Shown piece after piece: positions 30,334 through 33,300 of a stretch of DNA of 64,000 nucleotides. Source of the DNA: Escherichia coli (GTDB lineage Bacteria; Pseudomonadota; Gammaproteobacteria; Enterobacterales; Enterobacteriaceae); assembly GCF_017348835.2 (NCBI RefSeq), contig NZ_CP071375.1; one strand, written 5' to 3'. Numbering within the stretch: the stretch's first letter is position 1; each line of letters begins with the position of its first letter. The position numbers are program-made.

Positions 30334-33300
30334 TCAGAATTAACTTAACTGTGAATCATGATGTTTTTAGCATCCTGATAAGAGCTAAAAGTTTTAACGC
30401 TACGTTGTCAGATGGTCAACGCAACGAAAAACAATTCAGATTTTCTTTATAAGAATAGCTGATATTTATTAAGTTAATATTAAGCAGTGAAATTTAGTCT
30501 ATAAGATAATTGGCAAAAAAAAGCCCGGCGCAATATACGCCAGGCCTCAATTTATTGTTAGTTAAATAAGATTAATCCAGCCATTCAGTATGGAACACAC
30601 CTTCTTTATCAATGCGCTTATAAGTATGCGCACCGAAATAGTCACGCTGTGCCTGGATCAGGTTCGCAGGCAGAACAGCGGCGCGGTAGCTGTCGTAATA
30701 GGCAACCGCAGCAGCGAAGGTAGGAACAGGGATACCGTTCTGTACTGCATAAGCAACGACATCACGCAGCGCCTGCTGGTAGTCATCGGCAATTTGCTTG
30801 AAGTACGGAGCCAGCAGCAGGTTAGCGATCTGCGGATTTTCGGCATATGCATCAGTGATTTTCTGCAGGAACTGCGCACGGATGATGCAGCCAGCACGGA
30901 AAATCTTCGCGATTTCGCCGTAGTTCAGATCCCAGTTGTACTCTTCAGACGCAGCACGCAGCTGAGAGAAGCCCTGGGCGTAAGAAACGATTTTGCCCAG
31001 ATACAGAGCACGACGAACTTTTTCGATGAACTCAGCCTTGTCGCCAGCTGGCTGCGCTTGCGGGCCAGAGAGAACTTTAGACGCGGCAACGCGCTGATCT
31101 TTTAGAGAAGAGATATAACGTGCAAACACAGACTCGGTAATCAGCGACAGCGGTTCGCCGAGATCCAGCGCACTCTGGCTGGTCCATTTGCCCGTACCTT
31201 TATTTGCTGCTTCATCCAGAATCACATCAACCAGGTAGTTACCGTCTTCATCTTTTTTGGTGAAGATATCTTTAGTGATGTCGATCAGGTAGCTGCTCAG
31301 TTCACCGTTATTCCACTCGGTAAACGTCTGCGCCAGTTCTTCGTTGGAAAGATTCAGGCCACCTTTAAGCAGAGAATAGGCTTCAGCAATTAACTGCATA
31401 TCACCGTATTCAATACCGTTGTGAACCATTTTCACATAGTGACCCGCACCATCGGCACCAATATATGTAACGCACGGTTCGCCATCTTCAGCAACGGCGG
31501 CGATTTTGGTCAGGATCGGAGCAACCAGTTCATAGGCTTCTTTCTGGCCACCAGGCATAATGGAAGGACCTTTCAGCGCGCCCTCTTCACCACCGGAAAC
31601 ACCGGTACCGATAAAGTTAAAACCTTCGGCAGAAAGCTCACGGTTACGACGAATGGTGTCCTGGAAGAAGGTGTTACCACCATCAATGATGATGTCACCT
31701 TTATCGAGGTATGGCTTGAGGGAATCAATAGCAGCATCCGTCCCTGCACCTGCTTTCACCATTAACAGGATGCGACGAGGCGTTTCAAGAGATTCAACAA
31801 ACTCTTTCACCGTATAGTAAGGAACCAGTTTCTTGCCTGGATTTTCGGCAATCACTTCTTCCGTCTTTTCACGGGAACGGTTGAAAATAGAGACGGTATA
31901 ACCACGGCTTTCGATGTTGAGCGCAAGGTTGCGCCCCATCACTGCCATACCGACGACGCCGATCTGTTGCTTTGACATTGTTTACTCCTGTCAGAGGGTG
32001 GTCACCGCGATTTATGCACGGCTTGAATGTATTGCTGATGTTAACTCAGGATGAAGCCAGGTAGATAGCGTAAGATGTGATTCACGATGGTATTAAACAA
32101 ATGCTTTAGCAAAGGAAGGGTCAAATGGTCCCTCTTTCACCTCCATCATGAGAGCACGAGGAGACAAGCATTTGACACTGTGTATGTCTCCCGGAGAAAA
32201 CTCCACAATGTTAATTTCTGTATTTTCTCCGACAATAAATTGCTTAACGACTTCTCCATCTTTGCCATGCAAACAAACCTGAAGCTGGCCCTGCATGACG
32301 ATAAACATTTCCCACTGATGAGGAAGTTCATGGAAATGAGGTTCTACATAGCTACTACTGACCAGGGCAATGAGTAGTCGTTGCACCTTATCCTGATGCG
32401 AACTATGCATCAAAAGATGGGAACGCAGGCGCTCGGATTGCTCTGCTTGTTCGTATAATGCCTCAAGCTGGTCATTATCAATTAATCGCATTGCATGCCT
32501 CCAGCCTCATTTCTATCGTCCGCGCCGCAGACTCAACGGAGAACTGCTCTTTTAACAACTTGTTCGCGCCCAGACCAAATCGCTGGCGCGCATCAATGTC
32601 ATAAAGCATTAACAGCGCAGAATGGTAAAGCTTGTCATCCTCTCCATTGATATGGATTAATCCTGCGTTATTTTGATTGACGATGTCGAGCAGATCATTT
32701 CCAGCATTCACGCTACCTAATATAGGTAGAGACTGAACCATGTAACCTAACAACTTACCCGGAAAATTGTGAGAAGAGTGTTTGGCAGAAAGAGAAAACA
32801 GGCCTATATCCATTTCCGATAAGATGAACTTAAATTCTTCCTGATTCACCGAAGCCAGATACGTGAAATTCGACAATGCCCACTCAGTAGCCAGAGAGTT
32901 AATTAATTCCACTTCATCACCCTGGCCAATGAACAGGAAATGAGCTTGTGGATGCTCTGCCATACTTCGGGCAAGACGCATAAGATTTGCCATATCCTGT
33001 GCATGCCCGATATTTCCTCCATAGAAGAAAATCACTTTATCCTCTAGACCGAGGCGCTTACGCAGTGGCACATATTCTGGGGATAATACCGTCGGCGTGA
33101 GAGATGCCCAGTTACGTAGAACTTCGCAAGGATAGCCCTTGTTTGTCACCCGAAAAACATCAAGGTTTTTATCAGACATGAGTCCAATACGGTTTGCCTG
33201 ACGATAAGATGATCTTTCAAAGAGACGAAAATAACGTTCAATTGGGGATCCCTCTTTTAGCATTCCAGCATCAATTACCCATTGAGGAAACATATCTCTC

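What the first reader, a model, noticed from the sequence alone, without database searches (positions are those of the whole stretch)
32093..32491. WbuC cupin at the distal end of the cluster
A small cupin protein conserved at the end of fnl-containing O-antigen clusters with no established role, although its persistence suggests function.
Basis: partly seen in the sequence, partly recalled or inferred. Interest (0 to 1): 0.3.

Follow-up and report, generated by a model that had tools for sequence, protein, structure and literature searches.

The report
WbuC cupin gene, function still unknown
This is an intact, already annotated small metal-binding protein gene (wbuC) that ends a five-gene cassette for making a rare sugar and adding it to the E. 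coli O108 surface antigen; what the protein does has not been determined.

Summary
Window 32093-32491 (minus strand) is a 132-aa ORF that matches NCBIfam TIGR04366 "WbuC family cupin" (E=1.3e-41). It lies between wbuB and gnd in an E. coli O108 O-antigen cluster.

- **Position.** wbuC ends a five-gene cassette, fnlA-fnlB-fnlC-wbuB-wbuC, not the cluster as such. In other E. coli serogroups the cassette sits mid-cluster.
- **Distribution.** The same cassette occurs with an L-QuiNAc-type reductase in place of FnlB. Seven fnl modules outside this lineage (Pseudomonas, Sphingomonas, Bacteroides, Enterococcus and others) lack WbuC. Its presence tracks WbuB orthologues.
- **Family size.** WbuC belongs to a large family (over 2,000 clusters at 50% identity). 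This includes "orf477", found next to blaCTX-M and mcr-9 on about 2,700 plasmids.

The gene is under purifying selection (median dN/dS about 0.09) and was intact in 34 of 34 species loci. It overlaps the wbuB stop codon by 14 nt. It keeps an invariant His-x-His...Glu...His cupin metal site.

My best guess, with low-to-moderate confidence, is an auxiliary metal-dependent enzyme acting on UDP-4-keto-6-deoxy-HexNAc intermediates. The main rival is a partner protein of the WbuB transferase.

The gene is already annotated and is of modest interest.

The parts
32093..32491 (-). wbuC coding sequence, 132 aa. WbuC-family cupin with putative metal ligands H52, H54, E61 and H104.
   Evidence: ORF. TIGR04366 E=1.3e-41. 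PGAP annotation in the identical strain. The four ligands are invariant in a 40-sequence family alignment. AlphaFold model pLDDT 92.
32498..32502 (-). Shine-Dalgarno-like GGAGG, 6 nt upstream of the wbuC ATG and inside the 3' end of wbuB.
   Evidence: Read directly from the sequence.
32478..32491 (-). 14-nt overlap between the wbuB stop codon and the wbuC start, suggesting translational coupling.
   Evidence: The same 14-nt overlap occurs in 18 of 45 related loci. The gap ranges from -64 to +28 nt across all 45.
32478..33689 (-). wbuB, a GT4-type glycosyltransferase. By the literature it is the alpha-1,3 L-FucNAc-to-GlcNAc transferase.
   Evidence: Pfam Glyco_transf_4 and Glycos_transf_1. PGAP annotation. 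Role of the WbuB homology group from PMC7685785.
33689..34819 (-). fnlC, a UDP-HexNAc 2-epimerase of the WecB family.
   Evidence: Pfam Epimerase_2 E=7e-94, TIGR00236. Annotation.
34819..35922 (-). fnlB (wbjC/capF homologue): an SDR reductase domain plus a C-terminal cupin domain (PF14667).
   Evidence: Pfam Epimerase plus Polysacc_synt_C, E=5.5e-46. E=5.8e-102 to S. aureus CapF, PDB 2zkl.
35924..36958 (-). fnlA, UDP-GlcNAc 4,6-dehydratase/5-epimerase.
   Evidence: Pfam Polysacc_synt_2 E=1.4e-105. PGAP annotation as fnlA.
31979..32092 (.). 114-bp spacer between wbuC and gnd, with no convincing terminator or promoter.
   Evidence: hits are no more frequent than in shuffled sequence, and none lies in the spacer. 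Sequence shown.

Best explanation
wbuC encodes a functional, soluble, single-domain cupin with a 3-His/1-Glu metal site. It is made together with WbuB: the genes are co-transcribed, overlap by 14 nt, and wbuC has its own GGAGG ribosome-binding site. It is the fifth gene of a compositionally uniform, horizontally mobile cassette. The cassette consists of a UDP-GlcNAc 4,6-dehydratase/5-epimerase, a C4 reductase, a C2 epimerase, the WbuB transferase and WbuC. It makes a 2-acetamido-2,6-dideoxy-L-hexose (L-FucNAc here, L-QuiNAc elsewhere) and attaches it to GlcNAc-PP-undecaprenol.

Most likely mechanism (inferred, not shown): WbuC is an auxiliary enzyme, not strictly required. It would use its metal as a Lewis acid to stabilise the enolate of a UDP-4-keto-6-deoxy-HexNAc intermediate. 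It would then act as a C3/C5 epimerase or tautomerase, as the Zn-dependent cupin domain of FnlB/CapF does. That would raise flux to the correct UDP-L-HexNAc donor, or return the off-pathway 4-keto by-product of FnlA to the pathway.

Shown: the ORF, family membership, the fold, ligand conservation, cassette linkage and purifying selection. Inferred: metal binding, the substrate and the reaction.
For: **Family and fold**
- TIGR04366 at E=1.3e-41.
- AlphaFold model with pLDDT 92 and pTM 0.84.

**Metal site**
- H52, H54, E61 and H104, together with R23, Q37, G68 and G121, are invariant across 40 sequences that are only 28-58% identical to the window protein.
- hhalign of the family against FnlB C-terminal domains gives 88.9% probability (E=2.4e-6). 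The four ligands align with the FnlB/CapF HxH..E..H motif.
- The CapF cupin is a Zn-dependent epimerase acting on the CapE product. When it is blocked, a thermodynamic by-product of CapE accumulates (PMC5393024).

**Links to keto-sugar chemistry**
- The family profile weakly matches FdtA, an NDP-4-keto-6-deoxyhexose 3,4-ketoisomerase (PDB 2pa7, E about 1e-3; Pfam FdtA in 4 of 40 members).
- A relative is fused to an LbH acetyltransferase beside a Gfo/Idh/MocA oxidoreductase and a DegT aminotransferase. I interpret that gene set as a 3-keto UDP-sugar amination route.
- Another relative is fused to a NUDIX domain.

**Linkage**
- Every locus with a WbuC at least 38% identical and upstream sequence available carries fnlA, a reductase and fnlC upstream in the same order. 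This holds from Enterobacterales to Vibrio, Shewanella, Pseudoalteromonas and Sulfurovum.
- In V. furnissii (L025) WbuC follows FnlC directly, with no WbuB orthologue. Shewanella (L028) also lacks WbuB.

**Constraint and expression**
- Median dN/dS is 0.09, against 0.075 for wbuB. 34 of 34 species loci are intact.
- GC content is 0.43-0.45 across fnlA-wbuC and 0.34-0.37 in the adjacent GT, wzy and wzx genes.
- wbuC has a ribosome-binding site and overlaps wbuB.
Against: - No experiment bears on WbuC itself.
- Three enzymes suffice for UDP-L-FucNAc synthesis (CapE/F/G, PMC3699295). Seven fnl modules have no WbuC within 5 kb. Acinetobacter fnl blocks are described without it (PMC3726653). WbuC is therefore dispensable for the pathway.
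- FnlB already carries a C3-epimerase cupin, so WbuC would be redundant in fnl modules.
- The resemblance to CapF and FdtA is not specific. Generic Cupin_2 and DUF1971 hits are commoner (18 and 15 of 40 members). Thiol dioxygenases score as well as CapF structurally. The PF14667 score of 18.2 bits is below its cut-off of 28.7.
- The same invariant residues occur in relatives with no sugar genes nearby. This argues that the substrate is not specific to the fnl pathway.
- The strong co-occurrence with WbuB orthologues fits the rival explanation equally well.
Confidence: 0.35

Rival explanations
1. WbuC is a dedicated partner of WbuB-type transferases. It would bind WbuB, or act at the transfer step through donor presentation, specificity control or product handling, rather than acting on pathway intermediates.
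For: - Wherever a WbuB orthologue (at least 48% identical) was seen, WbuC follows within -64 to +28 nt. This holds in 45 loci, 30 of them overlapping and 18 with the identical 14-nt overlap.
- In the sample chosen through FnlB, the seven modules without WbuC have either no detectable WbuB homologue or glycosyltransferases only 19-33% identical to WbuB. The Citrobacter plasmid with a 66%-identical WbuB has WbuC.
- The pair persists when the reductase is exchanged, FnlB for an RmlD-like reductase.
- Lead from my own knowledge, untested: PF00534/GT4-type enzymes are usually retaining, yet an alpha-L-FucNAc linkage from a UDP-beta-L donor implies inversion. WbuB chemistry may therefore be unusual.
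Against: - Co-occurrence may reflect nothing more than inheritance of one cassette.
- Two loci keep WbuC with fnlABC but have no WbuB orthologue (L025, L028).
- The invariant putative active site is shared with hundreds of family members that have no WbuB nearby. This points to an autonomous activity.
- No WbuB-WbuC fusion appears among the top 150 representatives.
- No interaction was tested.
Confidence: 0.25
2. WbuC carries out a general family function not specific to the O-antigen sugar, such as an activity on UDP-GlcNAc or another common envelope precursor. It would have been recruited into the cassette as a helper, or simply carried along with it.
For: - The family has 2,067 clusters at E<=1e-3, most of them 155-170 aa. 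Only two clusters are close to the O-antigen type.
- Relatives that are 28-36% identical, in Chromatiales, Verrucomicrobia and cyanobacteria, have no fnl genes and no universally shared neighbour.
- In four Verrucomicrobia loci the gene directly follows lpxD. A NUDIX gene lies nearby in three of them.
- Chromosome-derived copies sit beside blaCTX-M-15 and mcr-9 on plasmids.
- One member lies in a housekeeping region among hisS, a PQQ beta-propeller gene and a GTPase gene.
Against: - The subfamily with E<1e-30 is almost exclusively found in fnl/qnl-wbuB cassettes.
- It is held there under purifying selection and tight coupling across phyla. A mere passenger would not be.
Confidence: 0.2
3. WbuC is an O2-dependent cupin oxygenase resembling thiol dioxygenases, or it chemically modifies the sugar.
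Against: - There is no CDO_I Pfam hit, and PCO_ADO is hit by only 1 of 40 members.
- Sequence identity to these structures is 12-20%.
- From my own knowledge, thiol dioxygenases use a 3-His site without the Glu that WbuC keeps.
- As far as I recall, the published O108 unit (8eLeg, Gal, L-FucNAc, GlcNAc; Perepelov 2010, cited in PMC7685785) contains no oxidised sugar.
- The host is a facultative anaerobe.
Confidence: 0.05
4. wbuC is a decaying remnant with no function.
For: - The gene is dispensable for UDP-L-FucNAc synthesis in other organisms.
- The distant plasmid-borne paralogue is usually truncated: only 651 of 2,677 records cover at least 80% of the query.
Against: - Median dN/dS is 0.09.
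- 34 of 34 species loci and all sampled E. coli clusters are intact.
- The ligand residues are invariant.
- Translational coupling to wbuB is conserved.
- The only E. coli remnant found results from deletion of the whole O-antigen cluster (L078).
Confidence: 0.02

Closest known systems
WbuC family cupin fold metalloprotein (NCBIfam TIGR04366; Pfam DUF6016), as annotated in E. coli O26, O145, O15, O177, O181, O123/O186 and O163 clusters
   Same: Full-length match well above the cut-off. Same size, same position after wbuB, same conserved His/Glu residues. 100% identical to WP_053884254.1.
   Different: Nothing of substance. This is the O108 allele, about 80% identical at the DNA level to the O145 and O15 alleles.
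C-terminal cupin domain of FnlB/WbjC/CapF (Pfam PF14667), the Zn-dependent C3-epimerase of the same pathway
   Different: - WbuC is stand-alone and has an N-terminal helix.
- It has two extra residues between the HxH and the Glu.
- Its PF14667 score is below the cut-off (18.2 against 28.7).
- No activity is known.
FdtA/QdtA-type NDP-4-keto-6-deoxyhexose 3,4-ketoisomerases (Pfam PF05523)
   Same: Small cupins found in nucleotide-sugar clusters. Weak profile similarity (2pa7 E about 1e-3; 4 of 40 family members). Precedent for cupin-LbH acetyltransferase fusions such as P0213 (the WxcM precedent is from my own knowledge).
   Different: The window protein itself does not hit PF05523 at E<=0.01. 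From my own knowledge, FdtA works without a metal, whereas WbuC keeps a complete metal-binding tetrad.
orf477/'wbuC' next to blaCTX-M-15 and mcr-9 on resistance plasmids
   Same: Same NCBIfam family name, the same invariant residues, and a DUF6016 hit.
   Different: Only 32-33% identical. It is 158 aa, with a C-terminal extension, and has no polysaccharide genes nearby. It is often truncated, with 651 of 2,677 records near full length. It is a paralogue, not the O-antigen gene.

Membership tests
NCBIfam TIGR04366 cupin_WbuC | Whole-protein score above the curated cut-off, with near full-length alignment | tested here: met
   141.6 bits against a cut-off of 42, E=1.3e-41. Residues 3-131 align to model positions 1-127 of 132.
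NCBIfam TIGR04366 cupin_WbuC | Cupin (double-stranded beta-helix) fold | tested here: met
NCBIfam TIGR04366 cupin_WbuC | Metalloprotein: conserved cupin ligand residues | tested here: met
   H52, H54, E61 and H104 are invariant in A1 (19 sequences) and A2 (40 sequences).
NCBIfam TIGR04366 cupin_WbuC | A metal is actually bound, and its identity | not testable with these tools
   Needs purified protein with ICP-MS, or a crystal structure.
NCBIfam TIGR04366 cupin_WbuC | Genomic context after fnlA/B/C and the WbuB transferase. The family description is recalled from memory; the context was tested here. | tested here: met
   Window order is fnlA-fnlB-fnlC-wbuB-wbuC. The same order is found in 32 of 34 related species loci.
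Pfam PF19480 DUF6016 | Score above the gathering threshold | tested here: met
   35 bits against 27. Only the N-terminal half is matched (residues 4-75). 39 of 40 family members match.
Pfam PF14667 Polysacc_synt_C (FnlB/CapF cupin domain) | Score above the gathering threshold | tested here: not met
   18.2 bits against 28.7, E=0.0028. Only 5 of 40 relatives hit it weakly. This is a distant relationship only.
Pfam PF05523 FdtA (3,4-ketoisomerase) | Score above the gathering threshold | tested here: not met
   No hit for the window protein at E<=0.01. Four of 40 relatives hit, best E=3.4e-6.
Thiol dioxygenases (CDO/ADO) | Sequence membership (Pfam CDO_I or PCO_ADO) | tested here: not met
   No CDO_I hit. 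PCO_ADO is hit by 1 of 40 members at E=0.0011. The resemblance is structural only, at 12-20% identity.

The most novel reading that the evidence does not exclude
WbuC-family cupins are a widespread, uncharacterised class of metal-dependent enzymes that act on UDP-keto-sugar intermediates, as auxiliary epimerases or as metabolite-repair enzymes. The O-antigen subfamily would have become an obligate companion of WbuB-type L-HexNAc transferases. If so, its loss would lower the yield or the fidelity of L-FucNAc- and L-QuiNAc-containing O-antigens. It would also give a function to orf477 on blaCTX-M and mcr-9 plasmids.
Probability: 0.3. Interest if true: 0.45.

Novelty: already known. Interest (0 to 1): 0.25.

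Why it matters
The gene and its family are already named and annotated, and the O108 cluster is published, so the finding itself is ordinary.

What remains open is the function of a protein retained in every sampled L-FucNAc, L-FucNAm or L-QuiNAc O-antigen cassette of E. coli, including O145 and, by the literature, O26. A distant paralogue is among the commonest passenger genes on ESBL and colistin-resistance plasmids.

This work adds the following:
- The unit of conservation is the five-gene cassette, and WbuC tracks the WbuB transferase.
- L-QuiNAc modules are included.
- Other fnl modules do without WbuC.
- The metal site is invariant across the whole family.

These points narrow the biochemical tests that need doing. 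The answer could matter for glyco-engineering of L-FucNAc-containing antigens. Its wider biological importance is probably modest.

Tried and rejected
- **PDB by sequence.** The single protein found nothing at E<=10. The family profile gave only weak generic cupin hits. No family member has a solved structure.
- **Genome scan with the wide alignment A2.** I used the narrower A3 instead. This biases the sample towards members carrying the [MLV][ML]E[VIL]KEGP[FY] motif.
- **afdb50 fold search.** The library was unavailable.
- **Promoter and terminator scan around wbuC.** Nothing above the shuffled expectation and nothing in the wbuC-gnd spacer. I therefore claim no separate transcription unit.
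- **Shared neighbours of distant family members.** Clustering found none shared across phyla, only lineage-specific synteny.
- **Further fused domains in longer family members.** None besides LbH, NUDIX and one unknown extension.
- **Literature.** Searches for WbuC, orf477 and DUF6016 found no functional study.
- **AlphaFold run on a WbuB-linker-WbuC concatenate with paired rows.** Considered, and the sequences were prepared. I did not run it. The tool returns no PAE or interface measure, and with one job left there could be no control, so a pTM value alone would have been uninterpretable.
- **CapF-paralogue idea as a membership claim.** Rejected because the PF14667 score is below threshold and generic cupin families match more often.
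Full report
**1. What is there**

The coordinates given (32093-32491) are exactly one ATG-started ORF of 132 aa on the minus strand. 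It matches NCBIfam TIGR04366 "WbuC family cupin fold metalloprotein" over its full length (141.6 bits, cut-off 42, E=1.3e-41). It also matches Pfam DUF6016.

The window is an E. coli chromosome segment running from the his operon to galF. It is 100% identical to strain PE164 over the region tested. In that strain PGAP annotates the same ORF as WbuC, and the wzx and wzy genes as O108 family.

Gene order on the minus strand is:
- a legionaminic-acid-type gene set, then wzx, wzy and a glycosyltransferase;
- fnlA (35924-36958), fnlB (34819-35922), fnlC (33689-34819), wbuB (32478-33689) and wbuC;
- a 114-bp spacer, then gnd.

The wbuC ATG lies 14 nt inside the end of wbuB, and a GGAGG sits 6 nt upstream of it. 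No promoter or terminator signal above chance separates wbuC from its neighbours.

**2. The protein**

Conservation across the family:
- In 19 close homologues, 38 positions are invariant.
- In a 40-sequence alignment spanning the wider family (28-58% identical to the window protein), R23, Q37, H52, H54, E61, G68, H104 and G121 stay invariant.
- In the same alignment, A16, H29, P51, G79, E117, K119 and P122 are nearly invariant.

H52-x-H54, E61 (six residues before G68) and H104 occupy the canonical cupin ligand positions. A 3-His/1-Glu metal site is therefore expected. Actual metal binding cannot be tested with these tools.

No family member has a solved structure.

**3. The unit of conservation is a five-gene cassette**

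A scan of one genome per species returned 67 loci. I searched them by tblastn with the window's FnlA, FnlB, FnlC and WbuB.

- Every locus whose WbuC is at least 38% identical to the query, and that has upstream sequence, carries fnlA, a reductase, fnlC and wbuB directly upstream of wbuC in the same order. WbuB is missing from that order only in L025 and L028 (section 4).
- The taxa include Citrobacter, Enterobacter, Kosakonia, Proteus, Yersinia, Pantoea, Xenorhabdus, Vibrio, Shewanella, Pseudoalteromonas and Sulfurovum. There is also an Erysipelotrichia MAG, and a Bacteroidetes MAG at 31% identity.
- In six of these loci FnlB is replaced by a gene of about 290 aa. In the one I scanned (L014) it is an RmlD-like reductase with no cupin domain. 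This is the L-QuiNAc-type pathway; the assignment rests on the review PMC7685785 and my own knowledge of WbvB/R/D.
- E. coli O181, O123/O186 and O163-type clusters and several metagenome contigs show the same variant, each with a WbuC. Some of these WbuCs are longer, at 160-172 aa.

Within the window, the five genes have a uniform GC content of 0.43-0.45. The adjacent glycosyltransferase, wzy and wzx genes have 0.34-0.37.

A Citrobacter IncX3 plasmid carries fnlA-wbuC with two further glycosyltransferase genes, between IS5 and IS110 elements.

In three E. coli clusters the cassette is followed by wzx and wzy rather than gnd. "Distal end of the cluster" is thus true of O108 but not of the gene in general.

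**4. Where WbuC is absent**

I took a sample that did not depend on WbuC, by searching the plasmid collection with FnlB (24 records). I inspected eight of them and searched all six reading frames with a family HMM.

Seven fnlABC modules have no WbuC within 5 kb: Diaphorobacter, an O11-like P. aeruginosa cluster, two Sphingomonadaceae, Sulfitobacter, Bacteroides finegoldii and Enterococcus faecalis. In these seven modules WbuB homology is either undetectable or only 19-33% identity. In all WbuC-containing modules the transferase is 48-90% identical to WbuB.

Acinetobacter fnl blocks are likewise described without wbuC (PMC3726653). Three enzymes account for UDP-L-FucNAc synthesis in S. aureus (PMC3699295).

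So WbuC is not needed for the sugar pathway as such, and it tracks WbuB orthologues. There are two counter-examples. V. furnissii (wbuC directly after fnlC) and Shewanella schlegeliana keep WbuC with fnlABC but have no WbuB orthologue.

**5. Is the gene maintained?**

Yes.

- Pairwise Nei-Gojobori estimates give a median dN/dS of 0.09 for wbuC. The values for the other genes are wbuB 0.075, fnlB 0.055, fnlA 0.034 and fnlC 0.018. The usable pairs are near saturation (median dS about 1.1), so these values are approximate.
- All 34 species loci give one uninterrupted HSP. It is full-length in 33 of them and covers residues 8-129 in L034.
- In 45 loci the wbuB stop and the inferred wbuC start lie -64 to +28 nt apart. 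Thirty overlap, 18 by the same 14 nt.
- Among 5,426 complete E. coli genomes, 380 match wbuC at the DNA level and 421 match fnlC.
- The five divergent fnlC-like loci I opened all have an intact WbuC. One of them (L080) has fnlA and fnlB annotated as frameshifted.
- The only remnant found is in a strain that has lost the whole O-antigen cluster (L078).

**6. The wider family**

A profile search of 1.84 billion representative proteins finds 2,067 clusters at E<=1e-3 and 616 at E<=1e-10. Most are 155-170 aa, about 30 residues longer at the C-terminus. Only two clusters are close to the O-antigen type.

- Members at 28-36% identity, in Chromatiales, Verrucomicrobia and cyanobacteria, have no fnl genes and no neighbour shared across phyla.
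- In four Verrucomicrobia loci the gene directly follows lpxD. A NUDIX gene lies nearby in three of them.
- One representative is fused to a NUDIX domain.
- Another is fused to an LbH acetyltransferase beside a Gfo/Idh/MocA oxidoreductase and a DegT aminotransferase.
- One lies among housekeeping genes.
- A 158-aa paralogue (32-33% identical) is the "wbuC/orf477" next to blaCTX-M-15 and mcr-9. It matches in 2,677 plasmid records, and only 651 of them cover at least 80% of the query. This paralogue accounts for most of the 148 papers that mention wbuC.

**7. How it most likely works**

No experiment exists, so what follows is inference.

The conserved tetrad and the fold indicate a metalloenzyme. 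The constant company of a 4,6-dehydratase/epimerase points to UDP-4-keto-6-deoxy-HexNAc as the substrate, and two relatives sit in other nucleotide-sugar settings. The same pathway already uses a Zn cupin, the FnlB/CapF C-terminal domain, for C3 epimerisation. When that domain is inhibited, a thermodynamic by-product of the first enzyme accumulates (PMC5393024).

WbuC aligns with that domain, ligand for ligand (hhalign probability 88.9%). It resembles it structurally, and the family weakly matches the ketoisomerase FdtA.

I therefore favour an auxiliary enolate-stabilising epimerase or tautomerase that improves flux, or salvages the by-product. My confidence is about 0.35.

Weaknesses of this view:
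- The similarities are those of cupins in general.
- The function would be redundant with FnlB.
- The invariant site is shared with relatives that lie far from any sugar genes.

The main rival, at about 0.25, is that WbuC serves the WbuB transferase. It rests on the strict co-occurrence and coupling. It is weakened by the two WbuB-less loci and by the autonomy of the family.

A general family function recruited to the cassette (0.2), an oxygenase (0.05) and a dead remnant (0.02) complete the list.

**8. Comparison with what is known, and verdict**

The ORF is a full member of TIGR04366 and DUF6016. It is not a member of PF14667 (the CapF cupin), PF05523 (FdtA) or the thiol dioxygenase families; the tests are listed in the membership table.

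The gene, its family name and the O108 cluster are already described, so the novelty class is "already known".

Interest is modest (0.25). A specialist would not be surprised by the gene. The cassette-level and WbuB-linked distribution, the inclusion of L-QuiNAc modules, and the invariant metal site give concrete experiments for a small open question.

Noticed in passing
window 40583-42172 (minus strand): A 529-aa 'hypothetical protein' between wzx and the nonulosonic-acid genes hits Pfam PF05159 Capsule_synth (27.6 bits, cut-off 20). The review PMC7685785 lists O108 among clusters with one glycosyltransferase fewer than expected. This ORF is a candidate for the missing 8-epilegionaminic-acid transferase.
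   Followed up: partly
L002 4001-4477 and L003 5001-5477 (plasmids NZ_AP023341, NZ_CP089412): A 158-aa WbuC-family paralogue ('orf477', 32-33% identical) sits next to blaCTX-M-15 and next to mcr-9.1. tblastn finds it in 2,677 plasmid records, mostly truncated: only 651 cover at least 80% of the query. Most literature mentions of 'wbuC' refer to this gene, not the O-antigen one.
   Followed up: partly
L087 (Citrobacter sp. CRE-46 IncX3 plasmid NZ_CP029735, record 7714-18811): The complete fnlA-fnlB-fnlC-wbuB-wbuC cassette, plus two further glycosyltransferase genes, lies between an IS5 and an IS110 transposase on a conjugative plasmid. The cassette can evidently move as a unit.
   Followed up: partly
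L042, L043, L045 and L050 (Verrucomicrobia MAGs), e.g. L042 8971-10471: A distant WbuC-family gene directly follows lpxD. In L042, L043 and L045 a NUDIX gene lies about 1 kb downstream, and in L042, L045 and L050 a Gfo/Idh/MocA oxidoreductase lies upstream. Separate representatives are fused to NUDIX (P0249) and to an LbH acetyltransferase (P0213).
   Followed up: partly
L078 6967-7098 (E. coli GDSC2239PM, NZ_CP136018): The whole O-antigen cluster between galF and gnd is deleted, leaving a truncated wzx and a 132-bp 3' remnant of wbuC. The strain is presumably rough.
   Followed up: no
L080 6122-8253 (E. coli ETEC1731, NZ_CP122816): fnlA and fnlB are annotated as frameshifted pseudogenes, while fnlC, the GT4 gene and wbuC are intact. 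This may be a real loss of L-FucNAc synthesis or an assembly error.
   Followed up: no
window 32093-36958 versus 36979-42172: GC content steps sharply, from 0.43-0.45 across fnlA-wbuC to 0.34-0.37 in the adjacent glycosyltransferase, wzy, wzx and the 529-aa ORF. This suggests the O108 cluster is a mosaic of blocks with different histories.
   Followed up: partly
L022 207-596 (Crocosphaera MAG) and L035 (Erysipelotrichia MAG): WbuC genes resembling the proteobacterial cassette type (58% and 42% identical to the window protein) turn up in MAGs assigned to a cyanobacterium and to a Firmicute. L035 has the full qnl-type cassette. This could be binning contamination or horizontal transfer.
   Followed up: no
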